Positions 1 through 35,489 of a DNA stretch of 64,000 nucleotides are shown one piece after another (the stretch's first letter is position 1; every line of letters starts with the position of its first letter). A program made the translations under genes and the position numbers. The DNA is taken from the NCBI GenBank assembly GCA_964016885.1, contig OZ024741.1, positions 91,698,001-91,762,000 of the forward strand, read 5' to 3'. Source of the stretch: Eledone cirrhosa (taxonomy: Eukaryota). The notes under the pieces are model-generated. The model searched no databases, was not told the DNA's origin, and saw only the letters and a program-made list of their open reading frames with translations.

Positions 1-1536
1 TATCCCCCTTGTTCGGATCCTTTCTCAGCAGTGCCACCGCTCCTCGGCTCACAGAACTGGGAATTCTCCCGTTCTGTTGCCAGTTGCAGTAGACGTCCGC
101 CAAGAGGCCTCCGAACAAGTCTGGCATCTGTACGTAAAGTTCATAGGGCAGACCATCCAAACCAGGCGATTTACCCCTTGTGCAGCCAGTCATTGCCTCC
201 CGTACTTCAGCGGCTATTATCGGCTTTTCACAACACTCAGCCTCAATGGCCGAGAGCCGCGACAGTCCGTCGAGGTAGACACTAAGGTCCATCCTTCGAT
301 CCGGCCCGCCGCTGCCTCCGAACAGCTGTGCGAAGGGTGGCTGAAAAGCTTCACACATTTGCCCGGGATCAAGTAGTATGCGCCCGTCGTGGTCCACCAA
401 AGCCGGATCGTGGCTTTGTTGCCACGACGCGCCTCCGCCACTCGGGCCCATTGAACGGCTTTCGTCCCCTCGGGTCTGAGAGCACGCACCCTAGCTCAGA
501 CAACGCAACCTTCGTGCTTTGCATTGAAGAATTGGTCAAGGGCCAATTTCGCCGCAAGTACGTCGGTCGCGATGCCTTTGCTAAGCCCCTCGTCTAATTT
601 TCTAACTAATTCTCCCTCTGCACTATTTTTCTCTATTGCTAAAGTCTTACTAAACCTAATGGACTCTAATCTAATTGCTCTTTTCAGAGCAAACCACCAC
701 TTGTTGTTGACGATGGCCCCCGCCAACTCCCGCTTAACTAGTTCGCTAATCCGGTCTCTGTAGGCCTTGCGCGCTGGTAAGGACGCGTTTAGCTTCCAGT
801 AGCCGGGTCCTCGTCTATGAAGCCTATCTAAGTCAAGCACACAGATCACGAATTTGTGGTCCGTGTAGCTGACTGTCTTGAATTATGGACAGCCTATGCT
901 AGACCTATCTATTTCCCTACAAAATACTCTATCTAGATATGATCTGGATGACTCTATGCGATTTGTCCAAGACCACATTGGCACATTCGGGAAATCCAAT
1001 CGGTACCTGTCAGACAGTTCAAAACGCCTGAGAAGGTTGGTGAGGCTCTTGCACCCTCCTCCCCTATCCGCTGATCCCACACAGTCCCAGCGGTCATCTA
1101 AGATCCCGTTCCAGTCGCCCATTAACACTAAAGAGCGGGACGTTCCTAGAAAGGTCTCCATACGCCGGAAGAAATCAGGCTGCCCTGCTCCTGTTGGGGC
1201 ATAGACGGCCACTAGCCTGAAAGCTTGCCCGTCTCTGCTGGTCACGTCCAGCACCACCAACTTACCTTCTGGGTCCAGGAAGATGGCGCGTATAGCGAGA
1301 TCCAAACCTCTCTGAAAAAGCACAGCAACTCCTCCCCCCGATCCCGGATGGCTGGGAGATTCGTACACATCGTAGCCGCCGAAGATCGGTGCGAAGGCAC
1401 GTGCTTCGGGGATTCTGGTCTCGCTGATGGCCACTTTATCTATGTTTAGTGACCTGAGGTCGTTGAGCATGTGGCCCTGCTTCCATGACGACCCCAAGCC
1501 ACGCGCATTTATGCTGCCTATTCTGAGTGAGGTCAT
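1..1536 (-). pseudogene. Tx1 ORF2 (APE + start of RT) with nonsense mutations
   Basis: MTSLRIGSINARG...GDWN...YLDRVF. Stops at 883-885 (CAA>TAA) and 496-498 (AGA>TGA) relative to the intact copies. Confidence 0.9.
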
Positions 1537-1570
1537 GTTGAAATGGAGTGGAAAAGATGGGAAAGACCAC

Positions 1571-3471
1571 TTACCTTACTTCTCGTAGAGGAAGGATGGT
1601 TTTTCCATCCTTTTCACAGCTTGTGGCCTCCTCCGGAAGGATGTCCTTATAAATCCTCCTGGAGAGTGTTTGTCGGAAGTCTCCGATGTCTTTGGGGAAT
1701 TTTTGTTTTGTGTCGTGTACGTTTTCTCTGTGATGCGAGTGATTTGTATGTGTGGAGGTGGTGTGAACTTTTGGGTTGTTGTGTAGTCTTTTTCTGTGAT
1801 GCTGGTGTTGTGTTGCATGTAGTGTACTAATTGGTTGTTGTTCAAATTTAATGCTGTGTAGTGTGTATCGTTTTGGTTGTTTTGTTTTGTTTGTGTTTGT
1901 TGTGGGTTTGTTTCTGTTTCGCTTTTTGGTGACTTTTGTGGTGTTGGTGATGGTGGTGTTGGGATTAATGATGGTGATGGTGTTGGTGTTTGTGGTCATG
2001 GTGTTGGTGATGCTGGTGTGGATGGTGGCATATCTGTCCTAACTTTTTTGTTTGATAGTTTATTTGTTTCCCTCTGTATTTTGTTTTTGGAGGGGGAGAA
2101 GAGAATTTTTTCTTTTTTGGTTTCTTTTTTTCTTTTTTCCTGATACCGTTTCCCACTCCTCGTCGTCACAATCTGTCTCCAGTTGTGATAGGCCGGGGAG
2201 TGGAAAATCCTCCACATGCGTTGGTTTTGGTTGTGGCGTGGTGGGTGGTGGTGGTGTTGGCTTTGCTACTGTTGCTGGGGTTGTTGCTGTTACAGTTGCT
2301 TCTGTTGTTGCTGCTACAGTTGTTGCTGCCATCTCTACTGCTGGTGGTGTTGATGGTTGAGTCACTGGGGTGGGTAGGACAGGTGGCCTCAACCTTTTAG
2401 CCTGAGGGCAGAAAGCCCTTAGGTGTGTTCCTTCACCACAAACGACACACCTAGGCCTTCTGTCCTCGACAATTACGATGAGGTAGCTGCCGTCAGTGAG
2501 GTCTATTACCTCTGGGATCTCCTCAATGCTTTTTTGGTCCGCTTGGATCAGGAGCTCCATCCAAGATCCGGACCAGTTCTCCTGCTTTTCTTTCACTATT
2601 TCGATTATCTTGGTGTTGTCTTCGATGCCGGCGAGGACGGCAGCTATTAGCCAGGGAATTTCGATGGCCGGTGGAACGTGGGTGACCCTGATCTTTACGA
2701 GTCTCTGGCCACAATAGCTTGGGACGAGTGTGAAGTCGTCACTTCTTAATGGGGCCATGGAGTGTTCTCTAGCCTCCTGTGGTGTTTCAAAGAACACGTC
2801 CACGGTTCCATATTTCTGCCCACGTCTGATGTGGGTTTTTTTTGCCCACACATGTCCCAAAACTTTTTGGATTTGGGACTCGGATGCCCGTTCCACTCGG
2901 CGCGATTTTATATTAATTGTTCGATAAGACACGGTGCATAGGCGCCGATGCTCCATTTTATTAGGGGGGGGTGAGGCTGACCCTGTACCCATCTTTCTTT
3001 ACCATTTGTTTGGCTTCTTCTAATTCCTCCTGAGTTACCTGAAATGCTTCGCACTGTTTTGCTAATCTGGCAAAACTCAGGGTGGTTTTCTTAATTTCAT
3101 TGTTGCAGTTGTTGTTATCGTTATTTTTGTTATTATTAATTTTAGTTTCAGTTGTTGGTGGTGGTGGCGTCACTGATGTTCGGTGTGGAAGAGTTCATTT
3201 TGGTTGAATTCATTTCGATATCACGAGTTAATTTATTTTTTTCTTTTGTTTCTGTTGTCGCGGTGATGGGGGGGGTTGTCGCGGTGGTGGTGATGGCGGC
3301 TTTAACACCTGCAGTCATTGGTAATGGCAGGAAATGAATATCTGCCTGAGGCAAATTTAAAATATTGCTACTGCTTATATTTTTAGTGTTGGCAAACGTA
3401 GTAATATTTACAATGGTGGTGTCGGTGTAAGGTGTTAGTTTGTGAGGAAGGAGTGACTCTGAGTCATCCAT
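1571..3471 (-). pseudogene. Tx1 ORF1 (nucleic-acid binding, CX2CX4HX4C), frameshifted
   Basis: Pieces 3148-3471, 2961-3173, 2060-2992 and 1571-1999 are collinear with ORF1 of family A; contains CVVCGEGTHLRAFC. Confidence 0.85.
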
Positions 3472-3685
3472 GATTTTTGAAAGAAAAATTTTTGTTTGAT
3501 AATTATAAAAGTTTAAATTTGGGGCTCAAGGCCCCAATCTTTTTGTGTGTCCTTTTCAGATAACAATGTATGTGCACTTATATACAGTTAACAATAAAAG
3601 TTTTCCATGAATGGCAATTTTAAACAACTGAAAATAACAAACCTTTGCGGAGCTCATGATGATACGATTTACTACGTAGCTCGCC

Positions 3686-3692
3686 AATAATA

Positions 3693-3785
<93 letters not shown>

Positions 3786-3795
3786 TAATAATAAT
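3686..3795. repeat. (AAT)n microsatellite, junction between Tx1-A' and the Dong leader
   Basis: Seen directly. Confidence 0.98.
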
Positions 3796-3991
3796 GTGTA
3801 TCATTTGTGAAATAACAACTCTTAGTACAAATGCTACGTAAAGCACCCGGCTTGAGCCCCAAAAATTCGGACCCAAAATATATTGTTATAAGGCTCAAAT
3901 ATTCAAATATTCAACTTTGTATTGTACACTGTATATCCAAAAAAGAAAATGGCTATAAATGGAAGAAGAACCCCCCCTCCTCTCCTCTGTC

Positions 3992-4128
3992 TACACTATA
4001 TAGAACAGCCAAACTCACCAACACCAGAAACTAGATACACTATATAGAACAGCCAAACTCACCAACACCAGAAACTAGATACACTATATAGAACAGCCAA
4101 ACTCACCAACACCAGAAACTAGATACAC
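3992..4128. repeat. 3 x 44-bp tandem repeat in the Dong leader
   Basis: TACACTATATAGAACAGCCAAACTCACCAACACCAGAAACTAGA at 3992, 4036 and 4080. Confidence 0.9.
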
Positions 4129-4835
4129 CACCCACCTCATCACCTGTGTACACTAAACACAACAGCCAGATAACGGCAATTTCACCACCACCGCTCACTA
4201 CTGCCATCATTACCACCACTATCCCATCACCGCCGCCACCACTCTTCACTCCTTCACTGACCACCACTGCCTCGGTATCGACATCACCACCACCACTGTC
4301 TCAGTATCGCTACCGCCGCCAGTCTTCCACTTCACCTAGCTGGCTGCTGCCACCACATTATAGAATTCCTACTACTAAAAAATAGGAAGGCATCAAAATA
4401 TATAGATAGACTCAAAAGAAAAAAGAAAAAACAAACAACAAAACCAAAGCAGCACAGCAACAACAGCAAAAAACGAGAAAAACAAACAGAGAAAAACAAA
4501 AACAAAAAAAAAACAAAAAACGTAAAGAAAATAAGAATGAAGAGAGAAGCAGGCGGACGGACAGAGAAGAGGGGGGAAAAACTAAAACTAAAAAAACAAA
4601 AACTAAGTCAGACATTCGAACACTACATTACAATGAAACTTATGCTTATTCATTTTTGGGGCCCTTTCTGCCTGTGTGTTTGTTTGTTTATGTGTGTTCG
4701 TATACAGCGTGGTGATAATGCCACACAAGGGCCAAGTGGAACGGCGAATCCACGGATGGTTATGTAACCATACATTCGCCAATCCTCGATAAGAGTGTTT
4801 AAATATCGAACATAAACAGTTCGAATAACGGTGAA

Positions 4836-7800
4836 ATGGAGACTAGAACGTCATGTGACAGACTCTCACCCAACAGGTGCCCCCTGGCTCAGCAGCAGGA
4901 ACCTGACTGTCAACCAAATACTGCTGATGTTGGAGGAAGAAGAAGAAGGAAAGGGGCCAGAACCAACTGGACGAAAGAATTGAATAGAACTGTTATGCAA
5001 TGTTACCTGAAAAGTAACCCCAAGGAGAGGGGCTACAGGAGACGGATGCATAACATCTGGAACGAGATTGGTCTATTTCAATTAGATGAACAAAAATTGG
5101 CCGGGCAGGCTCGGGTAATAAGAACTAATAGGTGGATAAGCGAGCTGGAACTGGAGGAACTGAGCAGAGAGAATGGCTTGGAGATGGCGGGTGTAGTATG
5201 CCAGACAAGCGAGCCAGTGGGAAATGAAGGTGAAGAGGTCCTGAGAACGGAGAAACCACCCGAAGCAGACAATGATCTGAAGACTGAGATAAATAATACC
5301 TGGAACAGAGATACGGCCACTGAGGAGATGAATGCTGACGGGCTAGGACAAGATTCGGTTGACATCCTAAATTTAGTGGTAGATGAATTGAACAATGATA
5401 GTGGGAGACCTATGAACCTAAGATTTGTAGACAGGAAAAAGTTAAAAGAAACAACAGCTAAGGTAAACAAAGTCATCCCATACCTTGAGACGAGGAGCCT
5501 TCACCAGTGCAACAATATCCTCAAAGCAACAGCAAATACGGTGAGGAAACTACTTGGTATAAAAGCGAGAGGAAACAACAGACAAGAAAGAGCAGAGCCG
5601 TGGTGGAAGAAACGACTGAGTGGTCAAATCGGGGAAATGAGAAATGACATAGGAAAGCTTGAGTCACTACTGAATGGGACACTAAAAAACATAGGCACTA
5701 AAGATAGACTGGAAATAAAGTACAAAACTAGGAGGAAAAAGCTAAATATTATCATAGAGGAACTGAAGCAACGCATTGTAGCAAAGAGTGCAAAAATCAG
5801 GCGATACGAGAACAGAGTCAGTCAGTATAAACAGAACCGCATGTTCGACAACAACCAAAAGATGCTGTTTGGACAGCTTGAGGGGAAAGAAAGAGGCAAC
5901 GACTTGATCCCTGGGGCGGAACAAACTAAAACATTCTGGAGAGGAATATGGGAGCAGGATGTTAGACACAATGCCCAGGCAGGGTGGATTGAGACAGTAC
6001 AGAGGGAGATCGGTGAGCAGGCACAACAACAAACTGATTTGAGTATCACAGTTGAAACTCTTAAGGGGCAGGCCAAAAACCTAACCAACTGGAAATCACC
6101 AGGCCCAGATGGTGTGCAGGGGTATTGGATTAAACATTTAACATCCCTCCACCCGAAGCTGACGGCCATGTTCAATGACTGCTTGGTGTCGGGTGAGGTG
6201 CCAGAGTGGTTGACAAAAGGTACCACAGTTCTGATAATGAAAGACCGAATCAAGGGTAATGATGTTACCAACTATAGACCTATCACATGTCTGTCCGTAA
6301 TGTGGAAACTGTTGACGAGCATTGTGTCTGAGGAAATCTACCATCACCTCCACACAAACAACTTGTTACCGGACGAACAGAAAGGATGCCGAAAGAAGTC
6401 ACGTGGTACAAATGACCAGTTACTTATTGATAATATGGTAATGGGGAATTGCAGGAGGAGACACACTCATCTTGCCATGGGATGGATAGACTACAGAAAG
6501 GCATTTGACATGGTGCCTCATTCTTGGATCACCAAAAGCCTGGAGATCTTCAGGGTGTCAGATAACATCAGACAGTTGCTGGGCAGGAGTATGGGGTACT
6601 GGGAGACAGAGTTGACATCAACTGGAGTATCCTTGGGAAGCGTGAAGATCAAGAGAGGTATCTTCCAGGGAGATAGCCTGTCCCCTCTGTTGTTTGTCCT
6701 TGCCCTGATGCCCTTGACCATTATGCTGCGAAAAGTGAGAGCAGGATACATGTTGGGAAAGGGAGAGCTTACCATCAATCACCTCCTCTTCATGGACGAT
6801 CTTAAGCTCTTCGGGAAAAGTGAGAAGGAGTTGGATGTGCTTGTTGACACTGTCCGTATTTTCAGCAGTGATATATGTATGCAGTTTGGTATTAGTAAAT
6901 GTAGAGTCATTGTGATGAGGAGGGGTAGGTTGAGCAGAAGTAACGGGATCCAGATACCAACAGGTGAGATGATAAAGGAAATTGACTCTGAGGAAAGATA
7001 CAAGTATTTGGGCGTTCTGGAGGCTGATGGCATAAAGAACAAAAAAATGAAGGAATTGTTAAGAACTGAATACATTCGGAGAGTAAGGAGCGTATTGAAG
7101 TCACATCTGAACAGCAGAAATGCCATAAGCGCAGTAAATTCCCGAGCTGTGTCTATTATTAGGTACAGTGCGGGAATTCTGAGATGGAATGTTGCTGAAC
7201 AAAAAGAAATGGATAGGAAGACTAGGAAGCTATTGACTATCTACAACATGTTCCACAAGAGGAGTGATGTCGATAGACTCTACCTAAGGATATCTGAGGG
7301 TGGAAGAGGTCTTATCAGCATAGAGGACTGTGTTCAGATGGAGAAAAACAACCTATACAAATACGTGACCTATAGTAAGGAGCCAATGCTCAGAACTGTA
7401 CTGAAGGAGGGGACAGTAGGCCAGGGGATGTCCAAGGAGGAAATAACATCAAGGAGGAAGAGCAGCCTTAAGGGAAAATCCCTTCATAGTACCTTCTTTG
7501 AGAAAACTGAATTTAGAGATCCACAGACATGGAACTGGTTGAGAAGAGGAGACCTCAAAAAGGCTACAGAAGGAATGCTAATGGCTGCGCAGGAGCAGGC
7601 CCTCAAAACAAAGTGGTTGAAGCACCATATTTACAAGGAGGAGGCTAGCCCACTGTGCAGGATCTGTGGAGAGAGTGAGGAGACTGTGGCTCACATTGTG
7701 TCCGAGTGTAAACACCTAGCCCAGACCCACTATAAGGGATGGAGACACGATGTGATGGACAGGGTGATCCACTGGCACCTGTGCAAAGTAAACAATTTAC

Positions 7801-8228
7801 CACATTCTGAGAAATGGTATGAGCATAGGCCAGAGGCGGTGATGGAGAACAATCAGGTGAAGGTGCTGTGGGATTTTAGGATACAGACGGACAAAAAACT
7901 GGAACACAATAGACCTGACCTGGTGGTTGTGGACAAAGAAAAAAGATCGTGTCTGATTGTGGATGTGGCCTGCCCTTTCGACATGAGAGTGCAAGAGAAG
8001 GAGAGGGAGAAAATTAACCGATACCAGGACCTAAAGTGGGAGGTGAAAAGGATTTGGAACTGCCATGAAGTCAAAGTGATCCCGATTGTCATAGGCGCAC
8101 TGGGGACTATCTCCAAAAGTTTCCAGGGATGGTTAAAGAAAATCGGCCCCTTCACGCTTTTTGGAACGCTTCAAAAGGCATGCTTGCTGGGAACAGCAAG
8201 AACCCTCCGATACGTCCTGAATATCTGA
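4836..8228 (+). CDS. R4/Dong-type polyprotein: N-terminal Myb-like region, reverse transcriptase, CCHC knuckle, PD-(D/E)xK restriction-like endonuclease
   Basis: RTNWTKELN; YRPIT; QGDSLSPLLF; LFMDDLKL; YKYLG; CRICGESEETVAHIVSEC; RHD; RPDLVVVD..IVDVACP..EKINRY. Confidence 0.95.
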   Translation: METRTSCDRLSPNRCPLAQQQEPDCQPNTADVGGRRRRKGARTNWTKELNRTVMQCYLKSNPKERGYRRRMHNIWNEIGLFQLDEQKLAGQARVIRTNRWISELELEELSRENGLEMAGVVCQTSEPVGNEGEEVLRTEKPPEADNDLKTEINNTWNRDTATEEMNADGLGQDSVDILNLVVDELNNDSGRPMNLRFVDRKKLKETTAKVNKVIPYLETRSLHQCNNILKATANTVRKLLGIKARGNNRQERAEPWWKKRLSGQIGEMRNDIGKLESLLNGTLKNIGTKDRLEIKYKTRRKKLNIIIEELKQRIVAKSAKIRRYENRVSQYKQNRMFDNNQKMLFGQLEGKERGNDLIPGAEQTKTFWRGIWEQDVRHNAQAGWIETVQREIGEQAQQQTDLSITVETLKGQAKNLTNWKSPGPDGVQGYWIKHLTSLHPKLTAMFNDCLVSGEVPEWLTKGTTVLIMKDRIKGNDVTNYRPITCLSVMWKLLTSIVSEEIYHHLHTNNLLPDEQKGCRKKSRGTNDQLLIDNMVMGNCRRRHTHLAMGWIDYRKAFDMVPHSWITKSLEIFRVSDNIRQLLGRSMGYWETELTSTGVSLGSVKIKRGIFQGDSLSPLLFVLALMPLTIMLRKVRAGYMLGKGELTINHLLFMDDLKLFGKSEKELDVLVDTVRIFSSDICMQFGISKCRVIVMRRGRLSRSNGIQIPTGEMIKEIDSEERYKYLGVLEADGIKNKKMKELLRTEYIRRVRSVLKSHLNSRNAISAVNSRAVSIIRYSAGILRWNVAEQKEMDRKTRKLLTIYNMFHKRSDVDRLYLRISEGGRGLISIEDCVQMEKNNLYKYVTYSKEPMLRTVLKEGTVGQGMSKEEITSRRKSSLKGKSLHSTFFEKTEFRDPQTWNWLRRGDLKKATEGMLMAAQEQALKTKWLKHHIYKEEASPLCRICGESEETVAHIVSECKHLAQTHYKGWRHDVMDRVIHWHLCKVNNLPHSEKWYEHRPEAVMENNQVKVLWDFRIQTDKKLEHNRPDLVVVDKEKRSCLIVDVACPFDMRVQEKEREKINRYQDLKWEVKRIWNCHEVKVIPIVIGALGTISKSFQGWLKKIGPFTLFGTLQKACLLGTARTLRYVLNI

Positions 8229-8326
8229 GGCTGCAGGTAGTGGCTTGATATTCATTCCAACGGACTTTCCAGTTAACCAACATCAATGACTGAGATTCAA
8301 GGAATAACAACAATAATAATAATAAT

Positions 8327-8702
8327 GATTTCTTTATTAACCACAAGGGTTTACATAAAGTAGACATTAAGGACAGTACAGGACAATACAGGACGGTGCA
8401 AATGGGCATTACTGCGTGTAAAAAAAACAGAGGATGCAATAAAAAAAATAACAATGAAAGATTCCCCAATAGGGGGGGGGGAGACTTCCGAGGCACATTT
8501 GTGGAGAAAGCACATTAAAAGGCCACAGTGACCCTGACCACTAGGGCAAGTGCCCTCTCCCAGTTTTCCACCATTAATTTACAGACACATACTCAGAGTA
8601 GACCCATTCACTCGGGCCATACTTGCTTCTCTCACCCATCTTTCAACAAAATGCTGGGAAGAGAGCACTTCCCTCTCTACCCTGATTTTCCTTTTCAAAT
8701 GA

Positions 8703-8705
<3 letters not shown>
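8327..8705 (-). mobile_element. 5'-truncated Tx1 family-A copy (3'UTR + last ~40 codons of ORF2)
   Basis: Matches 8736-9113; flanked on both sides by (AAT)n. Confidence 0.92.
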
Positions 8706-8737
<32 letters not shown>

Positions 8738-8986
8738 TTTCTTTATTAACCACAAGGGTTTACATAAAGTAGACATTAAGGACAGTGCAGGACAATGCAG
8801 GACGGTACAAATGGGCATTTCTGCGTGTAAAAAAACAAAAACAGAGGATGTAACAAAAAATAACAATGAAAAATTCCCCAATAGGGGGCAGACTTCGGAG
8901 GGACATTTGTGGAGAAAGCCCAGTAAAAAGCCACAATGACCCTGACCACCAAGGCAAGTGCCCTCTCCCAGTTTTCCACCTTTAAT

Positions 8987-12406: not shown

Positions 12407-12441
12407 GTTTAAAATAGAGTGGAAAAGATGGGAAAGACCAC

Positions 12442-14538: not shown

Positions 14539-15032
14539 GTTGTTTTTTTGTTTAAAATGAAATTTTGGGTACAAAACCCCAATAACTGGTTATTTAACCC
14601 CGAAGGGCCAAATAACGGACAGAAAGACCCCTCTCACGAGGAGGAGGGTGTCTTTATCAACAATTTGGTTCAAGTTTTAAACAATTTACAATTGTTTTAA
14701 CGGTTAAAAATTACTATACCTTACAGAGCCGAGCCTCCGTCAACCATGGCATTCAATAATAATAATAATAATAATAATGATTTCATTTATTGGCCACAAG
14801 GGCCGACATATAGGGGACAACACAATAGACAGGGACAGTGGGGGTTTACATAGAGATCGAGTAAGTATAAATAACAAAAAAAACAAAATAACAATGAAAA
14901 TACAACAATGAAAGTTCCCCAATAAGAGGGATCACCACCCAGGGTTGACTCAAGCACCCCACCAGTCCTGAGCCACCCGACGCTCCTAGGGCACCCGGGA
15001 AGGGCACCCCTCTCCTTCTCGAATTCACCAGC

Positions 15033-24284: not shown

Positions 24285-24319
24285 GTTTAAAATAGAGTGG
24301 AAAAGATGGGAAAGACCAC

Positions 24320-26392: not shown

Positions 26393-26605
26393 GTTTTTTT
26401 GTTTAAAATGAAATTTTGGGTACAAAACCCCAATAACTGGTTATTTAACCCCGAAGGGCCAAATAACGGACAGAAAGACCCCTCTCACGAGGAGGAGGGT
26501 GTCTTTATCAACAATTTGGTTCAAGTTTTAAACAATTTACAATTGTTTTAACGGTTAAAAATTACTATACCTTACAGAGCCGAGCCTCCGTCAACCATGG
26601 CATTC

Positions 26606-26643
<38 letters not shown>

Positions 26644-26904
26644 TTTCTTTATTAACCACAAGGGTTTACATAAAGTAGACATTAAGGACAGTGCAGGACA
26701 ATGCAGGACGGTACAAATGGGCATTTCTGCGTGTAAAAAAAACAAAAATAGAGGATGTAACAAAAATAACAATGAAAATAACAATGAAAAATTCCCCAAT
26801 AGGGGGGAGACTTCGGAGGGACATTTGTGGAGAAAGCCCAGTAAAAAGCCACAATGACCCTGACCACCAAGGCAAGTGCCCTCTCCCAGTTTTCCACCTT
26901 TAGT

Positions 26905-29900
26905 TTACAGATATATACTCAGAGTCGGCCCATTCACTCGGGCCATTCTTGCTTCTCTCACCCATCTTTCAACAAAATGCTGGGAAGAGAGCACTTCCTT
27001 CTCTACTCTGATTTTCCTTTTCAAATGAAATTTGAAAAAGTCAATCAGAGCATCACCGAAGAGGTAAGTGCTCGTCTTCAGCCCTTTCAAACGTGTCCAC
27101 CATACTATCTCTTTCGCCATGGCCACCAGACAGATAAAAACTGCCTGCCCTTCCCGGCTAAAGGAGGAGGGCGGGGCAATCCTCACGATAGACTCAGATG
27201 ATAGCTGGATCCGTCCTAAACGCGACAGCAGGTGTTCGACATAAACCCACAAGTCAGCAATTTTCGGACACTGGACGAGTGCGTGCAGGACGGTTTCGTC
27301 GCCCTGCGCGCATCTCGGACATGCCCGGCTGACGGCACCTCCATGCCTGTAGAGTTTATCCCGAACTGGCAAGGCTCCTCGGTAGCACTGCCAGGCCAGA
27401 GATTTCTGGAAGTTGTCCATAGGCCCCGGCCCGAAGGTTCTTCCGAAGAGATTGGCTAGTTGATTTTCGTCGACGCCTAGAGTTTCCCCAAGTACGTCGT
27501 CGCTCTTCCCCTCCACTAATCCTCTATAGAACGCCGAGGTGGAGTTTCCACCGATCACATTGCCCGATTGGTCGAGGGCTGTGAGCGCCTGAAGACATTC
27601 CAGTCTCCAGGCGCTCCCTCTCGGTCTTCGCTTGACCCAGGACTGCAGCTCCGTCAAGGAAACGAGCTGGGGAAAAACGCGTCTAGCAAACGGCGACCAC
27701 ACCTGATCACCGTCGAGGAAGAGGTGGAGATGTCGTAGCCTGAGCGCGTGCCTGCGCATCATCAGCCACGGCATGCCCAGCCCTCCACGTAGCGGGTGTT
27801 GACAACAGATGGACCGCCTGACCATCGGAGCACGTCCCTTCCACAAAAAGCGAAAGAGCAAACGCTCCAGCGCAGTCAGGCGAGGCTTAGGACAAGGTAC
27901 GACGGTTAGGCGGTAGCAGATGACAGACGCGATGTACGCGTTAGCCACCTCCGCTCGACCTTTCAGGGATAGCTTCCTCTCCGCCCATTTCTGGGTGAGA
28001 GAAGCCACCCTGCTCGTCACCTCGTCCCAGTTTTTGTCCGTCTGGAGGTCCGGACCGAACCAGACCCCTAGCAATTTAACCGGTCCGTCCGTCCAGCGCC
28101 CGACGACGCTGTTGGACGGCATGGACCTGCCTCTCCAGGTGCCGAGCTGCAGGCCCACTGACTTTTCCTGGTTGATCATTGCTCCTGTCACCGCTTCGTA
28201 TTCTCTTAGTGTAGTGCCGATCGCCTCGATGTGTTTGGCGTTCGACACCACTACGGTGACATCGTCCGCATATGCTGACACGGATCTTCCGCATCCTAGT
28301 TCGCGCGGGACTCCCCTCAACGTCTCCAGTTTGTGCAGTAATGGCTCGAGAGTCAATACGTACAAGAGGGACGAGAGGGGACATCCTTGGCGGACCGAGC
28401 GCATGATGTTGAACGGTTCCGACAGGTGACCGTTCACTCTCACCACAGAGCAGATGTCGCTGTGCATGGCAGCGATCCAGCCTCTGAAGACGGGCCCAAA
28501 GCCAGCCGCCCTCAGGACTGCCGCTAGGTAACGATGGTCGACCCTATCGAAAGCTTTCGACTGATCTAAATTGATCAAGGACCCACCCGTGCCAGGTTCC
28601 CTAGCTACCCTCTCTACGATGTATCGCATGAGGTGGAGGTTGTCGTGGATGGATCTGTCGGGAATGGCGCATGTCTGCGCCTCTCCCACCAGACCACCAA
28701 CGACAAGCGCCAACCTCTTTGCTAGCACCTTGGCCAAAATCTTAAACTCTGTGTTTAGCAGAGTTATGGGCCGGAAATTGTCTATGTTATCCCCCTTGTT
28801 CGGATCCTTTCTCAGCAGTGCCACCGCTCCTCGGCTCACAGAACTGGGAATTCTCCCGTTCTGTTGCCAGTTGCAGTAGACGTCCGCCAAGAGGCCTCCG
28901 AACAAGTCTGGCATCTGTACGTAAAGTTCATAGGGCAGACCATCCAAACCAGGCGATTTACCCCTTGTGCAGCCAGTCATTGCCTCCCTTACTTCAGCGG
29001 CTGTTATCGGCTTTTCGCAACACTTCGCCTCAGTGGCCGAGAGCCGCGGCAGTCCGTCGAGGTAGACACTAAAGTCCATCCCTCTACCCGGCCCCCCGCT
29101 GCCCCCGAACAGCTGAGCGAAGTGTCGCTGAAAAGCTTCACACATTTGCCCGGGATCGAGTAGCATGCGCCCGTCGTGGTCCACCAAAGACCGGATCGTG
29201 GCTTTGTTGCCACGACGCGCCTCCGCCACTCGGGCCCATTGAACGGCTTTCGTCCCCTCGTGTCTGAGAGCACGCACCCTAGCTCTGACAACGCAGCCTT
29301 CGTGCTTTGCATTGAAGAATTGGTCAAGGGCCAATTTCGCCGCAAGCACGTCGGTCGCAATGCCTTTGCTAAGCGCCTCGTCTAATTTTCTAACTAGTTC
29401 TCCCTCTGCTCTATTTTTCTCTATTGCTAAAGCCTTACTAAACCTAATCGATTCTATTCTAATCGCTCTTTTCAGAGCAAACCACCACTTGTTGTTGACG
29501 ATGGCCCCCGTCAACGCCCGCTTAACTAGTTCGCTAATCCGGTCTCTGTAGGCCTTGCGCGCTGGTAAGGACGCGTTTAGCTTCCAGTAGCCGGGTCCTC
29601 GTCTATGAAGCCTATCTAAGTCAAGCACACAGATCACGAATTTGTGGTCCGTGTAGCTGACTATCTTGAATTGTGGACAGCCTATGCTAGACCTATCTAT
29701 TTCCCTACAAAATACTCTATCTAGATATGATCTGGATGACCCTATGCGGTTTGTCCAAGTCCACATTGGCACATTCGGGAAATCCAATCGGTACCTGTCA
29801 GACAGTTCAAAACGCCTGAGCAGGTTGGTGAGGCTCTTGCACCCTCCACCCCTATCCGCTAATCCCACACAGTCCCAGCGTGCATCTAAGATCCCGTTCC

Positions 29901-30324
29901 AGTCGCCCACTAACACTAAAGAGCGCGACGTTCCAAGAAAGGTCTCCAGACGCCGGAAGAAATCAGGCCGCCCTGCTCCTGTCGGGGCATAGACGGCCAC
30001 TAGCCTGAAAGCTTGCCCGTCTCCGCTGGTCACGTCCAGCACCACCAGCTTACCCTCTGGGTCCAGGAAGATGGCCCGTATGGCGAGATCCAAACCTCTC
30101 CGAAAAAGCACAGCAACTCCTCCACCCGATCCAGGACGGCTGGGAGATGCGTACACATCGTAGCCGCCGAAGATCGGTGCGAAGGCCCGTGCTTCGGAGA
30201 TTCTGGTCTCGCTGATGGCCACTACATCTATGTTTAGTGACCTGAGGTCGTTGAGCAGGTGACCCTGCTTCCATGACGACCCCAAGCCACGCGCATTTAT
30301 GCTGCCTATTCTGAGTGAGGTCAT
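26905..30324 (-). CDS. Tx1 ORF2 (APE-RT-CCHC), intact
   Basis: 1139 aa, same motifs as A1. Confidence 0.96.
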   Translation of the reverse strand: MTSLRIGSINARGLGSSWKQGHLLNDLRSLNIDVVAISETRISEARAFAPIFGGYDVYASPSRPGSGGGVAVLFRRGLDLAIRAIFLDPEGKLVVLDVTSGDGQAFRLVAVYAPTGAGRPDFFRRLETFLGTSRSLVLVGDWNGILDARWDCVGLADRGGGCKSLTNLLRRFELSDRYRLDFPNVPMWTWTNRIGSSRSYLDRVFCREIDRSSIGCPQFKIVSYTDHKFVICVLDLDRLHRRGPGYWKLNASLPARKAYRDRISELVKRALTGAIVNNKWWFALKRAIRIESIRFSKALAIEKNRAEGELVRKLDEALSKGIATDVLAAKLALDQFFNAKHEGCVVRARVRALRHEGTKAVQWARVAEARRGNKATIRSLVDHDGRMLLDPGQMCEAFQRHFAQLFGGSGGPGRGMDFSVYLDGLPRLSATEAKCCEKPITAAEVREAMTGCTRGKSPGLDGLPYELYVQMPDLFGGLLADVYCNWQQNGRIPSSVSRGAVALLRKDPNKGDNIDNFRPITLLNTEFKILAKVLAKRLALVVGGLVGEAQTCAIPDRSIHDNLHLMRYIVERVAREPGTGGSLINLDQSKAFDRVDHRYLAAVLRAAGFGPVFRGWIAAMHSDICSVVRVNGHLSEPFNIMRSVRQGCPLSSLLYVLTLEPLLHKLETLRGVPRELGCGRSVSAYADDVTVVVSNAKHIEAIGTTLREYEAVTGAMINQEKSVGLQLGTWRGRSMPSNSVVGRWTDGPVKLLGVWFGPDLQTDKNWDEVTSRVASLTQKWAERKLSLKGRAEVANAYIASVICYRLTVVPCPKPRLTALERLLFRFLWKGRAPMVRRSICCQHPLRGGLGMPWLMMRRHALRLRHLHLFLDGDQVWSPFARRVFPQLVSLTELQSWVKRRPRGSAWRLECLQALTALDQSGNVIGGNSTSAFYRGLVEGKSDDVLGETLGVDENQLANLFGRTFGPGPMDNFQKSLAWQCYRGALPVRDKLYRHGGAVSRACPRCAQGDETVLHALVQCPKIADLWVYVEHLLSRLGRIQLSSESIVRIAPPSSFSREGQAVFICLVAMAKEIVWWTRLKGLKTSTYLFGDALIDFFKFHLKRKIRVEKEVLSSQHFVERWVREARMARVNGPTLSIYL

Positions 30325-30359
30325 GTTTAAAATAGAGTGGAAAAGATGGGAAAGACCAC

Positions 30360-32453
30360 TTACCGTATTTTTGGTAGAGGAGGGATGGTTTTTACATCCC
30401 TTTTCACTTGATCGTCTGGTGAAGGGACCGTTGAATCGTCCCTTCGGCTGGTCGTCGGCTCTTCTAAGAGAATGTCTGAATATACTCTTCGATTAATGGT
30501 TCCTCCTAGGTCCCTGAAATCACCAACTGCGTTGGGGAATTTCGTTTTAATGTTTGTGTATTGTTTCTGTGCTATTTTTAGCAGTCTTATGTTAGTTGGC
30601 GTTTTGATTGGTGCTGGTATTATGTAGTCCTGTTGTGAAATGTCTGTGTGTTCAATTATGTAAGTCATTAGTTTCTTGTTGTGTGTGTTTATTGCCGTGC
30701 ATTTGTTTTTCTGGGGGTGGGGTGTGGTTCTGCTATTTTCTTGTCGTTGTTGCTGGGTGTGTGTGTTTTGTTGTTGTGTTTGCGATGTTGGTGCTTGTGG
30801 TGTTGAAGGTGTTGTTGGCGGTGGGGTTGTCGCCGGTGGTGATGGTGGTGCTGGTGTGGGTGGTGATGGTGTTGGTGGTGTTGCTGCTGTGGGTCTCTTT
30901 GCAGTAGACTTTACCCTTTTCTCATTTCTTTCCTCCCTTTTCAAAGGCGACGATGCGCTGCTTCTGCGTTTGTGCCTTCTTGAGACCTTTTGCCATCCCT
31001 CTCCCACCTCACACTCCATGTCTGATTCTGTAAGGTCGGGGAGGGGTACCAGCTCCACTCTTTCACTTGTTGTTGTTGGTGATGTTTGCACTGGAGTCTC
31101 TGTTGCAGCTGCATTTGGTATTGCTGTTGTTGTTGTTAATATTTCCACTGCTGCTGCTGTCTTTGATTTCCGTGGAGTGGGTATGGGTGCCACGGACCTA
31201 TCGTTCCTGGTTGCCGCTTGTCCTGTTGCTGGTAGCCGTGGAACCGGATTCGGGAGGAGGGGGGTTTTCTCCTTTCTCAGGGTCTTCTCGTTGCAGAAGG
31301 CCCTGAGGTGAGTCTTCGATCCACAGCGAAAGCATTTCGGGCGTTTGCCCTCAACACTTATGGGCAGTTGAGTGCCGTTATCGAAGTCTATCACATCCGG
31401 GATAGCTTCGATGCACTCCTGGTTGGTTTGGATTAGCATCTCAATGGAGGAGCCGACCCAATCTTCTCTTACTTTTTTCTGTACTTGCAGTACAGTTGTT
31501 TTGTCCTCGATTCCGACGAGGACAGACGCGGCCAGCCAAGAAGGGGTCATTCCGGGGGGGACGTGGGTCAGTTTGACCCTCACAATTTTTTGCCCGCAGT
31601 AGGAGGGCACCAACACCATTTCCTCGCTCCTTAGGGTCACTACTGATTGGGCCTTTGCCTCCTGGGGTGTGGCAAAAAGTACGTCTACGGTGGCGTATTT
31701 TTTGCCTCGGGTGATGTGCGTTTTCCTCTGCCACACAGACCCCAAGGCTTTTTGTATTTGGGCCTCTGTGGCTCTTTCCACCCTACGGGATTTTGTACTT
31801 ACTGTACGGTACGTGACCGTACAGTGCTCTTGGGTTTCGAAAAAATTTTTCGCTGCCTTGCAGATTGCTCGGTGTCCGTTCTTTGTCACCATCTTCTTCG
31901 CTTCCTCTAATTCCTCATTTGTTATGAGGATTGTTTCCAGGTTTTTCGCAATACCTGCAAATGAGATTGGTTTTTCTCTGCTGTTGTTGTTGTCGTCAGA
32001 GCTGCTGGTACTTTTGTTGTTGCTGCAGGTACTACGACTACTGCCTCCGCCGCTGTTGCTGTGGTTGTTGTTGGTGTTGCTGCTGCTAATGGTGTTGTTG
32101 TTTATGCTGCTGGTGATGCTGTTGCGGCTGCTACTGTTGTTTTCATTGTCACTGTTGCTGTTGTTATTACGGCTGCTACTGCTATTATTCCTGACGTCAG
32201 ACGAATGAACTGGGTTTTCGTATTTCCCGCACACCTGTTTCGTCGCTGTCGTCGTCGTCGTGGAGAAACCTTGCACGCTTTGCACGAGACTTTTCTTTTC
32301 TTTCGTCGCTTGCGAAAGAGAAGGTAGTGGGAGAGACACATTTAAAGAAGGGAGGGAGAGAGACAATCTTCTCTCTCCTGTAGTGATGATTGAGGAAGAA
32401 GAAGACGGAATGAGTGGGAGTGACGTATGAAATTTTTTTTTTTTGGTAGCCAT
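30360..32453 (-). CDS. Tx1 ORF1
   Basis: Open frame from the ATG at 32453; CCHC knuckle. Confidence 0.9.
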   Translation of the reverse strand: MATKKKKFHTSLPLIPSSSSSIITTGERRLSLSLPSLNVSLPLPSLSQATKEKKSLVQSVQGFSTTTTTATKQVCGKYENPVHSSDVRNNSSSSRNNNSNSDNENNSSSRNSITSSINNNTISSSNTNNNHSNSGGGSSRSTCSNNKSTSSSDDNNNSREKPISFAGIAKNLETILITNEELEEAKKMVTKNGHRAICKAAKNFFETQEHCTVTYRTVSTKSRRVERATEAQIQKALGSVWQRKTHITRGKKYATVDVLFATPQEAKAQSVVTLRSEEMVLVPSYCGQKIVRVKLTHVPPGMTPSWLAASVLVGIEDKTTVLQVQKKVREDWVGSSIEMLIQTNQECIEAIPDVIDFDNGTQLPISVEGKRPKCFRCGSKTHLRAFCNEKTLRKEKTPLLPNPVPRLPATGQAATRNDRSVAPIPTPRKSKTAAAVEILTTTTAIPNAAATETPVQTSPTTTSERVELVPLPDLTESDMECEVGEGWQKVSRRHKRRSSASSPLKREERNEKRVKSTAKRPTAATPPTPSPPTPAPPSPPATTPPPTTPSTPQAPTSQTQQQNTHTQQQRQENSRTTPHPQKNKCTAINTHNKKLMTYIIEHTDISQQDYIIPAPIKTPTNIRLLKIAQKQYTNIKTKFPNAVGDFRDLGGTINRRVYSDILLEEPTTSRRDDSTVPSPDDQVKRDVKTIPPLPKIR

Positions 32454-32690
32454 GTTTTTTTGTTTAAAATGAAATTTTGGGTACAAAACCCCAATAACTG
32501 GCTATTTAACCCCGAAGGGCCAAATAACGGACAGAAAGACCCCTCTCACGAGGAGGAGGGTGTCTTTATCAACAATTTGGTTCAAGTTTTAAACAATTTA
32601 CAATTGTTTTAACGGTTAAAAATTACTATACCTTACAGAGCCGAGCCTCCGTCAACCATGGCATTCAATAATAATAATAATAATAATAAT

Positions 32691-35489
32691 AATACGGTGA
32701 GGAAACTACTTGGTATAAAAGCGAGAGGAAACAACAGACAAGAAAGAGCAGAGCCGTGGTGGAAGAAGCGACTGAGTGGGCAAATCGGGGAAATGAGAAA
32801 TGACATAGGAAAGCTTGAGTCACTACTGAATGGGACACTAAAAAACATAGGCACTAAAAATAGACTGGAAATAAAATACAAAACTAGGAGTAAAAAGCTA
32901 AATATTATCATAGAGGAATTGAAGCAACGCATTGTAGCAAAGAGTGCAAAAATCAGGCGATACGAGAACAGAGTCAGTCAGTATAAACAGAACCGCATGT
33001 TCGACAACAACCAGAAGATGCTGTTTGGACAGCTTGAGGGGAAAGAAAGAGGCAACGACTTGATCCCTGGGGCGGAACAAAGTAAAACATTCTGGAGAGG
33101 AATATGGGAGCAGGATGTTAGACACAATGCCCAGGCAGGGTGGATTGAGACAGTACAGAGGGAGATCGGTGAGCAGGCACAACAACAAACTGATTTGAGT
33201 ATCACAGTTGAAACTCTTAAGGGGCAGGCCAAAAAACTAACCAACTGGAAATCACCAGGCCCAGATGGTGTGCAGGGGTATTGGATTAAACATTTAACAT
33301 CCCTCCACCCGAAGCTGACGGCCATGTTCAATGACTGCTTGGTGTCGGGTGAGGTGCCAGAGTGGTTGACAAAAGGTACCACAGTTCTGATAATGAAAGA
33401 CCGAATCAAGGGTAATGATGTTACCAACTATAGACCTATCACATGTCTGTCCGTAATGTGGAAACTGTTGACGAGCATTGTGTCTGAGGAAATCTACCAT
33501 CACCTCCACACAAACAACTTGTTACCGGACGAACAGAAAGGATGCCGAAAGAAGTCACGTGGTACAAAGGACCAGTTACTTATTGATAAGATGGTAATGG
33601 GGAATTGCAGGAGGAGACACACTGATCTTGCCATGGGATGGATAGACTACAGAAAGGCATTTGACATGGTGCCTCATTCCTGGATCACCAAAAGCCTGGA
33701 GATCTTCAGGGTGGCAGATAACATCAGACAGTTGCTAGGCAGGAGTATGGGGTCCTGGGAGACAGAGTTGACATCAACTGGAGTATCCTTGGGAAGCGTG
33801 AAGATCAAGAGAGGTATCTTCCAGGGAGATAGCCTGTCCCCTCTGTTGTTTGTCCTTGCCCTGATGCTCTTGACCATTATGCTGCGAAAAGTGAGAGCAG
33901 GATACAAGTTGGGAAGGGGAGAGCTTACCATCAATCACCTCCTCTTCATGGACGATCTTAAGCACTTCGGGAAAAGTGAGAAGGAGTTGGATGTGCTTGT
34001 TGACACTGTCCGTATTTTCAGCAGTGATATATGTATGCAGTTTGGTATTGGTAAATGTGGAGTCATTGTGATGAAGAGGGGTAGGTTGAGCAGAAGTAAC
34101 GGGATCCAGATACCAACAGGTGAGATGATAAAGGAAATTGACTCTGAGGAAGGATACAAGTATTTGGGCGTTCTGGAGGCTGATGGCATAAAGAACAAAA
34201 AAATGAAGGAATTGTTAAGAACTGAATACATTCGGAGAGTAAGGAGCGTATTGAAGTCACATCTGAACAGCAGAAATGCCATAAGCGCAGTAAATTCCCG
34301 AGCTGTGTCTATTATTAGGTACAGTGCGGGAATTCTGAGATGGAATGTTGCTGAACAGAAAGAAATGGATAGGAAGACTAGGAAGCTATTGACTATCTAC
34401 AACATGTTCCACAAGAGGAGTGGTGTCGATAGACTCTACCTAAGGAGATCTGAGGGTGGAAGAGGTCTTATCAGCATAGAGGACTGTGTTCAGATGGAGA
34501 AAAACAACCTATACAAATACGTGACCTATAGTAAGGAGCCAATGCTCAGAACTGTACTGAAGGAGGGGACAGTAGGCCAGGGGATGTCCAAGGAGGAAAT
34601 AACATCAAGGAGGAAGAGCAGCCTTAAGGGAAAATCCCTTCATAGTACCTTCTTTGAGAAAACTGAATTTAGAGATCCACAGACATGGAACTGGTTAAGA
34701 AGAGGAGACCTCAAAAAGGCTACAGAAGGAATGCTAATGGCTGCGCAGGAGCAGGCCCTCAAAACGAAGTGGTTGAAGCACCATATCTACAAGGAGGAGG
34801 CTAGCCCACTGTGCAGGATCTGTGGAGAGAGAGAGAGGAGACTGTGGCTCACATGTGTCCGAGTGTAAACACCTAGACCAGACCCACTATAAGGGCTGGA
34901 GACACGATGTGATGGGCAGGGTGATCCACTGGCACCTGTGCAAAGTAAACAATTTACCACATTCTGAGAAATGGTATGAGCATAGGCCAGAGGCGGTGAT
35001 GGAGAACAATCAGGTGAAGGTGCTGTGGGATTTTAGGATACAGACGGACAAAAAACTGGAACACAATAGACCTGACCTGGTGGTTGTGGACAAAGAAAAA
35101 AGATCGTGCCTGATTGTGGATGTGGCCTGCCCGTTCGACACGAGAGTGCAAGAGAAGGAGAGGGAGAAAATTAACCGATACCAGGACCTAAAGTGGGAGG
35201 TGAAAAGGATTTGGAACTGCCATGAAGTCAAAGTGATCCCGATTGTCATAGGCGCACTGGGGACTATCTCCAAAAGTTTCCAGGGATGGTTAAAGAAAAT
35301 CGGCCCCTTCACGCTTTTTGGAACGCTTCAAAAGGCATGCTTGCTTGGAACAGCAAGAACCCTCCGATACGTCCTGAATATCTGAGGCTGCAGGTAGTGG
35401 CTTGATATTCAATCCAACGGACTTTCCAGTTAACCAACATCAATGACTGAGATTCAAGGAATAACAACAACAATAATAATAATAATAAT
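32691..35489 (+). mobile_element. Dong family 1 copy 2, lacking the 5' part, frameshifted near the zinc knuckle
   Basis: Matches 5535-8326; ORF split into 32658-34868 and 34822-35385; (TAA)n tail. Confidence 0.93.

What the first reader, a model, noticed from the sequence alone, without database searches (positions are those of the whole stretch)
1..35489. Self-perpetuating (AAT)n array shared by two unrelated retrotransposon clades in strictly opposite orientations
Seen: six Tx1-like (APE) copies, all on -, and two Dong/R4-like (RLE) copies on + here (four more on + at 46.9-58.7 kb). Every inter-element junction in this cluster is an (AAT)n tract (3686, 8303, 8703, 14755, 20554, 26606, 32667, 35461). 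Tx1 tails read (ATT)n and Dong tails (TAA)n, i.e. opposite strands of the same repeat. Established: Dong targets (TAA)n; fish Tx1 families Kibi/Koshi target other microsatellites; SART/TRAS occupy (TTAGG)n in opposite orientations but are both R1-clade APE elements. Inference: an APE and an RLE enzyme converged on one target and nick opposite strands, and each insertion regenerates target for both, building a >35-kb gene-free sink. Three ORF-intact Tx1 copies and one intact Dong ORF are candidate ATT/TAA-specific integrases.
Basis: partly seen in the sequence, partly recalled or inferred. Interest (0 to 1): 0.85.

Follow-up and report, generated by a model that had tools for sequence, protein, structure and literature searches.

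The report
Opposite-facing retrotransposons share AAT repeats
Two unrelated, recently copied retrotransposon lineages sit by the thousand in (AAT)n repeats across this 3-Gb animal genome, almost always facing opposite ways, likely because their enzymes start insertion on opposite strands of the repeat; the 38-kb array here is one of several such pile-ups.

Summary
Confirmed, and it holds genome-wide. The array (38.4 kb, starting 2.9 kb left of the window) holds six L1/Tx1-type (APE) copies on − and three R4/Dong-type (RLE) copies on +, with (AAT)n at every junction. Genome-wide, 1,596 of 1,669 TxA 5' ends abut four or more in-phase AAT units and 1 abuts the opposite polarity. Dong 5' ends give 825 AAT matches (some double-counted) against 4 opposite, among 1,141. 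The window's copies are independent insertions, not duplicates. Corrections: the locus is not special; the Tx 'tails' are largely target-derived; Tx specificity looks looser, about Y|ATTAT with 11–19-bp duplications. That is read from one TxA copy and from a tRNA-like SINE sharing the Tx 3' hairpin. Other arrays also grow by homology-driven duplication. Opposite-strand priming is inferred, not shown. Each ingredient has a precedent: Dong/(TAA)n, Tx1/microsatellites, APE and RLE on one site (Keno/Utopia), opposite orientation (SART/TRAS). My ten paper searches found neither an ATT-targeting Tx1 lineage nor this combination; Repbase and Dfam could not be checked. Verdict: new variant of a known kind, interest 0.5.

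The parts
1..3685 (-). TxC: L1/Tx1-type copy with TxA-type ORF2 and a different 5'UTR/ORF1; ORFs broken; extends to -2146
3686..3795 (+). (AAT)n tract, ~37 units, between two 5' ends (head to head), so it cannot be a 3' tail
3800..8302 (+). DongA: single ORF 4836-8228 (1130 aa; RT, CCHC, RHD, PD..D..K restriction-like endonuclease); first ~74 nt of the 5' head missing
8303..8326 (+). AAC-interrupted (AAT)n junction, tail to tail
8327..8705 (-). 5'-truncated TxA-like 3' fragment (91% to TxA)
8703..8735 (+). (AAT)11 junction
8736..14754 (-). TxA full length; ORF1 14538-12442 (698 aa, one CX2CX4HX4C knuckle), ORF2 12406-8987 (1139 aa; APE, RT, zf-RVT)
14755..14778 (+). (AAT)8 junction
14779..20553 (-). 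TxB full length, both ORFs intact; ORF2 75% identical to TxA; one substitution from a copy on contig C1
20554..20601 (+). (AAT)16 junction
20602..26605 (-). TxA full length; ORF2 intact, ORF1 interrupted by a stop
26606..26641 (+). (AAT)12 junction
26642..32666 (-). TxA full length, both ORFs intact; 5-9 substitutions from three copies on contig C1
32667..32693 (+). (AAT)9 junction
32691..35459 (+). 5'-truncated DongA with a frameshift
35460..35489 (+). AAC-interrupted (AAT)n, right end of the array
35490..35588 (-). 3' part of a tRNA-like SINE whose 3' end abuts the array; the family shares the Tx 3' hairpin
46657..46860 (-). tRNA-like SINE at the left end of the second cluster
46861..58734 (+). 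Second cluster: (AAT)9, DongA 3' piece 46888-47616, (AAT)44, DongA 47755-52607 (frameshift), (AAT)22, DongA 5'UTR 52686-53974, a non-AAT junction, DongB 53990-58713 (35% protein identity to DongA, similar 5' head), (AAT)7
62244..62440 (+). Solo SINE with a readable ~17-19-bp target-site duplication starting ATTAT (approximate limits)

Best explanation
The array is a nest of independent insertions by two unrelated, recently copied non-LTR retrotransposon lineages that both occupy (AAT)n tracts genome-wide in opposite orientations, likely because the L1/Tx1-type APE enzyme primes reverse transcription on the AAT strand and the R4/Dong-type RLE enzyme on the ATT strand. SHOWN: shared tracts, polarity, independence and layered ages of the window's copies, thousands of copies. 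INFERRED steps: (1) The Tx endonuclease cuts the bottom strand at about 5'-ATAAT|R-3' (top strand Y|ATTAT), an L1-like T|R step, and leaves an 11-19-bp duplication. (2) In a pure tract that duplication is 4-6 new AAT units, so each insertion leaves usable target on both sides for either lineage; Dong adds a few AAC-interrupted units of its own. (3) Tx recognises its RNA through a 3' hairpin with a CTTGT loop, which a tRNA-like SINE shares and so rides along. (4) When a copy lands beside the 5' end of a same-family copy, homology can template its 5' part and duplicate the spacer. This lengthens arrays elsewhere, but is not seen in this window's TxA pair.
For: Polarity: TxA 5' ends 1,596 of 1,669 with C(AAT)4 against 1 opposite; TxB 29 of 30; DongA 29 of 30 sampled; Dong 825 AAT matches (6 double counts in the 100 rows listed) against 4 opposite, of 1,141. 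Tract-centred sample, first 30 (AAT)>=8 tracts of C1: 21 Dong flanks all +, 13 Tx all −, 5 SINE all −, no exception. 5'-truncated Dong copies lack the RNA 5' end yet have AAT upstream in 47 of 57, with 0 opposite. Independence: the window's TxA copies differ by 29-51 substitutions from each other, while one is 5 from a copy on another contig; the window's TxB is 1 from another copy. Enzyme classes: best solved matches are L1 ORF2p (E 6.5e-51) and R2, with the C-terminal PD..D..K stretch aligned; catalytic motifs are present. Cut signature: 16 of 21 SINE 3' flanks start ATTAT; 10 of 21 have a duplication, and all 9 un-nested ones are preceded by C or T. One TxA copy has a 15-bp duplication at C|ATTGT (L184). 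Spacers between tandem TxB copies are 5-6 units in all 16 adjacent pairs. SINE and Tx 3' ends align (0 of 2000 shuffles reach the score for one SINE variant against TxA and TxB) and fold with the same CTTGT loop on different stems.
Against: No biochemistry was done. Only 8 of 15 5'-truncated Tx copies have (ATT)3 upstream; 6 have none (several (CTT)n or (ACT)n) and 1 is opposite. Three full-length TxA copies whose 3' tract is interrupted after 1-2 units (L166, L068, arr114_1147) show no matching duplication at the 5' side, which a fixed 15-bp duplication predicts. For the commoner SINE variant the 3' similarity is weaker (13 of 2000 shuffles against TxA, 64 of 2000 against TxB), so the SINE-based cut signature may belong to another LINE. 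8 of 21 SINE copies showed no duplication. 28 of 30 copies of a host repeat with a short internal (AAT)n are empty. Two adjacent TxB pairs elsewhere are fully identical, which points to plain tandem duplication or assembly duplication there. The flank samples come from the start of contig C1 and are clustered, so they are not independent.
Confidence: 0.78

Rival explanations
1. Polarity is set by pairing of each RNA's 3' end with the nicked primer, not by strand-specific nicking. Both enzymes may nick either strand of the AT-rich repeat, but only the strand complementary to the tail (AUU for Tx, AAU for Dong) primes.
For: Every readable Tx or SINE duplication starts with ATT. Dong 3' ends carry shared AAC-interrupted units that look encoded. 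A link between 3' microsatellite-like repeats and the first base of the duplication is proposed for RTE elements (PMC6007223, abstract).
Against: The base before ATT is C or T at 9 of 9 un-nested SINE sites, while the SINE's own base there is usually A, which points to a preference of the enzyme. In SART/TRAS the endonuclease sets the site (PMC7265360, passages). This rival is not exclusive of the best explanation.
Confidence: 0.3
2. Full-length Tx RNA begins inside an upstream (ATT)n and carries it along, so the 5' tract is delivered or annealed by the RNA. The enzyme's real target is only a short Y|ATTAT motif.
For: Full-length 5' ends have tracts in 96% of cases against 8 of 15 truncated ones. 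L166 has (ATT)12 at the 5' side and a single ATT at the 3' side.
Against: 104 of 127 Tx 3' ends are followed by four or more ATT units. Filled copies of a host repeat show the element inside the pre-existing tract (L271).
Confidence: 0.25
3. The array arose mainly by tandem duplication or unequal exchange, or is an assembly duplication.
For: Elsewhere, adjacent same-family pairs share their 5' part more than unrelated pairs (8 of 18 TxA pairs against 5% of 813; 7 of 16 TxB pairs against 3% of 222). Spacers are duplicated exactly (816 bp and 232 bp, 0 mismatches), and two TxB pairs are identical.
Against: In this window there are three Tx subfamilies and Dong copies from 82% to 98.5% identity. 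The TxA copies differ by 29-51 substitutions and group with copies on another contig. The adjacent pair differs from base 165 on.
Confidence: 0.06
4. No targeting: the elements merely end in microsatellite tails, as RTE elements do, and pile up passively.
For: AAT tracts are abundant: 26,354 of eight or more units preceded by a non-T base.
Against: Tracts lie at 5' ends, including head-to-head junctions (3686; 5 of 30) and truncated Dong 5' ends (47 of 57), with fixed polarity.
Confidence: 0.02

Closest known systems
Dong (R4 clade; Bombyx Dong, DongAg, snail DongBg)
   Same: Single RT-RLE ORF; (TAA)n on the sense strand at both ends. (TAA)n targeting, including in a mollusc, is stated in PMC3812793 (passage); R4-lineage placement in PMC3774820 (passages). 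Recently active Dong-R4 copies are reported in Octopus vulgaris (PMC13282606, table passage).
   Different: Two families only 35% identical share a similar 5' head. No Rfam ribozyme match was found at the 5' end. The tracts are shared with an APE element.
Microsatellite-targeting Tx1 families (Kibi (TC)n, Koshi (TTC)n, crocodilian (TTCC)n/(TTTC)n)
   Same: Two ORFs, APE-RT-zinc finger ORF2 closest to L1 among solved structures, simple-repeat target (PMC4494074, passages and section 15).
   Different: Target is (ATT)n / Y|ATTAT; an octopod-type host lineage (58% homolog in Argonauta hians); no poly(A) tail; thousands of copies.
SART/TRAS on (TTAGG)n
   Same: Two families inserted in one repeat in opposite directions (PMC7265360, passages).
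   Different: Both use the same APE-type endonuclease (R1 clade, recalled) and are confined to telomeres. Here it is APE plus RLE, at dispersed interstitial tracts.
Keno (Tx1, APE) and Utopia (RLE) in U2 snRNA genes
   Same: [quoted passage not shown]
   Different: They have identical 3' flanks, hence the same orientation, in a low-copy gene; insertions do not recreate the target.
Chimeric L1 insertions with duplication by cDNA annealing to nearby homologous DNA; SINEU with Tx1-Mar
   Same: Templated L1 insertions that duplicate genomic DNA are described (bioRxiv 10.1101/2024.08.27.596794, passage). A Tx1-mobilised SINE is proposed in crocodilians (PMC4494074, passage).
   Different: Here the homologous partner would be the neighbouring copy in a targeted array, with spacers up to ~890 bp; the SINE head is tRNA-like.

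Membership tests
L1 group (APE-type non-LTR retrotransposon) | [quoted passage not shown] | tested here: met
   PF03372, PF00078 and PF13966; best PDB match human L1 ORF2p, E 6.5e-51 against 1.7e-21 for R2; catalytic motifs present
L1 group (APE-type non-LTR retrotransposon) | Separate upstream ORF1 | tested here: met
   620-698-aa ORF1 overlapping nothing but the ORF2 start region
Tx1 clade | RT phylogeny grouping with Tx1/Keno/Kibi rather than with other L1 lineages | not testable with these tools
   No named Tx1 reference among the hits; no reference tree was built
Tx1 clade | Target-sequence preference | tested here: met
   preference is typical of Tx1 per PMC4494074
Tx1 clade | Zinc-knuckle (CX2CX4HX4C) ORF1 (feature recalled, not from a call) | tested here: inconclusive
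   One knuckle motif is visible in all three ORF1 types; Pfam zf-CCHC_4 only at E 0.22 in TxB
R2 group (RLE-type non-LTR retrotransposon) | Single ORF with RT and C-terminal CCHC plus PD-(D/E)xK-like endonuclease, no APE | tested here: met
   (R2 best match, second stretch over RPD..D..K)
R4 clade / Dong | RT phylogeny with R4, Dong and Rex6 | not testable with these tools
   Named hits are uncharacterised arthropod proteins (33-49%); no named R4 or Dong reference
R4 clade / Dong | Insertion in (TAA)n on the sense strand | tested here: met
R4 clade / Dong | HDV-like ribozyme at the 5' end (PMC3774820) | tested here: inconclusive
   No ribozyme family among the 51 Rfam matches at E<=0.5; no dedicated model was built
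SINE-LINE pair with shared 3' end | Shared 3'-terminal sequence and structure, and the same insertion signature | tested here: inconclusive
   Shared ~23-nt end and CTTGT-loop hairpin, strong for one SINE variant and weaker for the other; signature matches one TxA copy; other LINE partners were not excluded

The most novel reading that the evidence does not exclude
An octopod L1/Tx1 lineage shifted its endonuclease to ATAAT|R and its RNA recognition from poly(A) to a 3' hairpin, and so moved onto Dong's microsatellite from the other strand. The two enzymes, plus the SINE riding on Tx, now generate most long (AAT)n tracts in the genome. New cDNAs complete their 5' ends on the neighbouring copy, producing chimeric full-length elements and long duplications. 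The result is a self-feeding, telomere-like array system at interstitial sites.
Probability: 0.35. Interest if true: 0.7.

Novelty: new variant of a known kind. Interest (0 to 1): 0.5.

Why it matters
It gives a natural side-by-side test of what sets insertion polarity in target-primed reverse transcription (endonuclease strand choice or RNA-primer pairing), using two unrelated enzymes on one 3-bp repeat, with many ORF-intact young copies (15 of 28 full-length TxA copies have both ORFs at full size). It adds a likely new target to the Tx1 list and a candidate partner LINE for an abundant SINE. It suggests that a majority of long (AAT)n tracts in this genome are retrotransposon junctions (19 of the first 30), which matters for microsatellite markers and for assembly. 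As an insertion tool it is less attractive than R2, because the target is short and dispersed.

Tried and rejected
A BLAST-type DNA search of the own genome found nothing because common words are skipped; exact patterns were used instead. Public runs could not confirm the array: contigs are fragmented and cut at the repeats, and no RNA holder was listed. Contigs labelled as three other organisms cover both the TxA and Dong 5' regions, but their flanks could not be read. A single-sequence AlphaFold model of the APE domain had mean pLDDT 33.9 and was discarded; no fold search was run. Rfam gave only low-complexity matches below gathering scores. Cluster look-up and the Atlas gave no clade names. 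The idea that the long Dong 5'UTR derives from Tx ORF1 was dropped: only short low-complexity matches, best E 4e-4. A simple two-parent chimera test on arr55 did not fit unequal exchange between its neighbours, and that pair differs from base 26 although its 816-bp spacer is identical; this remains unexplained. L041/L061, a DongA 5' end at an internal TAATAA, gave no duplication because the far side is not the continuation. The earlier-findings look-up returned nothing. The supplement of PMC4494074, which may list further Tx1 targets, could not be read, and figures are not held.
Full report
OBSERVATION. The window is G000:C2:91,698,001-91,762,000 of a 3.0-Gb genome. Self-comparison, ORF lists and Pfam and a library-based annotation that includes 30 kb upstream confirm the description. 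From −2875 to 35489 the order is: (AAT)5, an old DongA fragment (+, 82%), (AAT)15, TxC (−), ~(AAT)37, DongA (+, ORF intact), tract, a TxA fragment (−, 91%), (AAT)11, TxA, (AAT)8, TxB, (AAT)16, TxA, (AAT)12, TxA, (AAT)9, a truncated DongA (+), tract, then the 3' end of a SINE. Nine (AAT)>=4 tracts and no (ATT)>=4 tract occur in 1-35489; 200 shuffles gave none. The tract at 3686 lies between two 5' ends, so it is not a tail. A second, Dong-only cluster lies at 46.9-58.7 kb; one of its junctions (53975-53989) is not a tract.

WHAT THE ELEMENTS ARE. The − strand elements have a 620-698-aa ORF1 with one CX2CX4HX4C motif and a 1139-aa APE-RT-zinc finger ORF2. Their best solved match is human L1 ORF2p, and catalytic motifs are intact in all four complete ORF2s. 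TxA and TxB ORF2 are 75% identical; TxC pairs a TxA-type ORF2 with another 5' region. The + strand elements have one ORF with RT and a C-terminal RPD..D..K stretch that aligns to R2; DongA and DongB are 35% identical. The names Tx1 and Dong rest on this architecture, on the target and on recall. No named reference was retrieved, so I built no clade tree. A 58% homolog in Argonauta hians points to an octopod host lineage. Recently active Dong-R4 (1,129 insertions) and L1-Tx1 (421) are tabulated for Octopus vulgaris; the passages I saw say nothing about targets (PMC13282606).

GENOME-WIDE TEST. An exact 21-mer at the TxA 5' end occurs 1,669 times. 1,596 continue into four perfect in-phase AAT units; 1 continues into the opposite polarity, and that one is a fold-back. 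All 30 fetched flanks had the tract; the neighbour across it was another Tx in 12, Dong in 9, a SINE 3' end in 5 and other DNA in 4. TxB has 316 5' ends, and 29 of 30 have three or more units. A Dong 5' 21-mer occurs 1,141 times, with 825 matches to a strict (AAT)3 pattern (6 of the 100 listed rows are double counts) and 4 opposite, the latter at AAT/ATT hairpin tracts. 29 of 30 sampled DongA 5' ends had the tract, 23 of them with another Dong or Tx beyond it. Exact 3'-end motifs occur 7,739 times (TxA type) and 4,569 times (DongA). Starting from tracts instead: there are 26,354 (AAT)>=8 tracts preceded by a non-T base. Of the first 30, 19 touch a Tx or Dong, 3 only a SINE, and 8 gave no hit; all 21 Dong flanks were +, all 13 Tx and 5 SINE flanks −. 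These samples come from the start of contig C1 and are clustered.

TARGET OR TAIL? 5'-truncated copies lack the RNA 5' end. After dropping hits with a same-family piece just upstream, Dong has (AAT)3 upstream in 47 of 57 and the opposite in none; some of the 10 misses are alignment breaks. Tx has (ATT)3 in 8 of 15, none in 6 (several (CTT)n or (ACT)n) and the opposite in 1. An earlier, unfiltered look gave 14 of 15 and 6 of 16. Tx 3' tracts have two or fewer units in 19 of 127 cases, so a long encoded tail is unlikely. One truncated TxA sits in non-repeat DNA with a 15-bp duplication beginning C|ATTGT (L184). Against a fixed duplication: three full-length copies with an early interruption in the 3' tract show no matching interruption at the 5' side.

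A SINE READS OUT THE CUT SITE. A SINE with tRNA-like A and B boxes (my reading of the sequence) ends in a sequence resembling the Tx 3' end. One variant aligns to TxA and TxB better than all 2000 shuffles; the commoner variant is weaker (13 and 64 of 2000); neither matches Dong. TxA, TxB and both SINE ends fold into a small hairpin with a CTTGT loop closed by different stems. In all 9 un-nested duplications the preceding base is C or T. If Tx mobilises this SINE (inferred), its cut is about 5'-ATAAT|R-3' on the bottom strand, a modest change from the L1 TTTT|AA rule (recalled). In a pure tract such a duplication is 4-6 units, which matches the 5-6-unit spacers in all 16 adjacent TxB pairs. This is the likely basis of target regeneration.

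HOW THE ARRAY GREW. Among 28 full-length TxA copies, the window's three differ from each other by 29-51 substitutions, while one is 5-9 from three copies on contig C1; 15 of 28 have both ORFs at full size. The window's TxB differs by one base from a copy on C1. The array is therefore a nest of separate insertions of layered age, not a duplication or an assembly artefact, although reads could not confirm it directly. It is not unique: mixed or single-family arrays of about 25-60 kb were found at five other places on C1, including ten TxB copies in a row.

A SECOND GROWTH ROUTE ELSEWHERE. In other arrays, adjacent same-family copies share their 5' part unusually often. The first difference lies beyond base 300 in 8 of 18 TxA pairs (one old pair dropped) against 5% of 813 unrelated pairs (pairs with 40 or more differences dropped), and beyond base 500 in 7 of 16 TxB pairs against 3% of 222 (pairs are not independent). 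Non-repeat or interrupted spacers are duplicated on both sides of a copy in 7 cases, not in 5, and 1 is unclear; two were aligned and are identical over 816 and 232 bp while the flanking copies differ at 57 sites. This fits a cDNA finishing on its neighbour, as described for templated L1 insertions (bioRxiv 10.1101/2024.08.27.596794, passage), or unequal exchange between alleles; I cannot separate the two. Two TxB pairs are fully identical. The window's adjacent TxA pair shows none of this.

MECHANISM. In the TPRT model the first nick is on the strand that primes minus-strand synthesis (PMC2881922, passages). Sense flanks of (ATT)n for Tx and (AAT)n for Dong then imply priming on the AAT and ATT strands respectively. 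Whether the endonuclease or RNA-primer pairing picks the strand is open. The C/T preference favours an enzyme contribution for Tx; the RTE precedent favours pairing (PMC6007223, abstract only).

COMPARISON AND NOVELTY. Dong targets (TAA)n, including in a snail (PMC3812793, passage; PMC3774820, passages). Tx1 families target (TC)n, (TTC)n, (TTCC)n and (TTTC)n (PMC4494074, passages and section 15). SART and TRAS occupy one repeat in opposite directions (PMC7265360, passages). Keno (APE) and Utopia (RLE) converged on the same U2 site (PMC4640811, passage). An O. bimaculoides Dong is mentioned without a target in the passages seen (PMC9115989). Passages of PMC4758252, PMC4824008 and PMC3747384 name octopus SINEs or Tx1 but no such pairing. 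Ten searches returned no ATT-targeting Tx1, no APE/RLE pair on opposite strands of one microsatellite, and no Tx1 partner for an octopus SINE. The library lacks most subscription papers; Repbase and Dfam notes, figures and the PMC4494074 supplement could not be seen and may already record this.

VERDICT. Real, genome-wide and well supported; a new combination of known behaviours with a probably new Tx1-type target. New variant of a known kind, interest 0.5.

Noticed in passing
G000:C1:423,361,889-423,420,187 (L228-L234): Ten full-length TxB copies head to tail, every spacer exactly (AAT)5, with a similarity gradient along the array and two identical neighbours.
   Followed up: partly
G000:C1:55.44-55.45 Mb (L093-L095) and C1:118.96 Mb (L100-L101): 816-bp and 232-bp spacers duplicated without a mismatch on both sides of a TxA copy that differs from its neighbour at 57 sites.
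   Followed up: partly
window 47755-48100, 52686-53040, 53990-54330: DongA and DongB are only 35% identical in protein but share a ~350-bp 5' head (75%), suggesting 5'UTR exchange. TxA and TxC likewise share ORF2 but not ORF1/5'UTR.
   Followed up: no
window 53975-53989: Non-AAT junction: the DongA 5'UTR is joined to a full DongB through a ~15-20-nt piece that matches the DongA 3' coding region.
   Followed up: no
window 35615-35700 and 58714-58800: Similar host sequence follows an AAT tract near the right end of both clusters.
   Followed up: no
L081, L082-L085: The rare opposite-polarity cases are fold-back 5' ends or AAT/ATT hairpin tracts.
   Followed up: partly
L248-L277: A ~950-copy host repeat with an internal AAC-interrupted (AAT)n; 28 of 30 copies are empty, one holds DongA (+) and one TxB (−).
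   Followed up: partly
window 43505-43785: A long inverted repeat within a ~640-bp tandem duplication (43607-45168) scored against a miRNA model below its gathering score; probably a small foldback element.
   Followed up: no
L183, L173, L061, L174, L104: Five other DongA copies with a full 1130-aa stop-free ORF; the window's intact ORF is the more divergent one.
   Followed up: no
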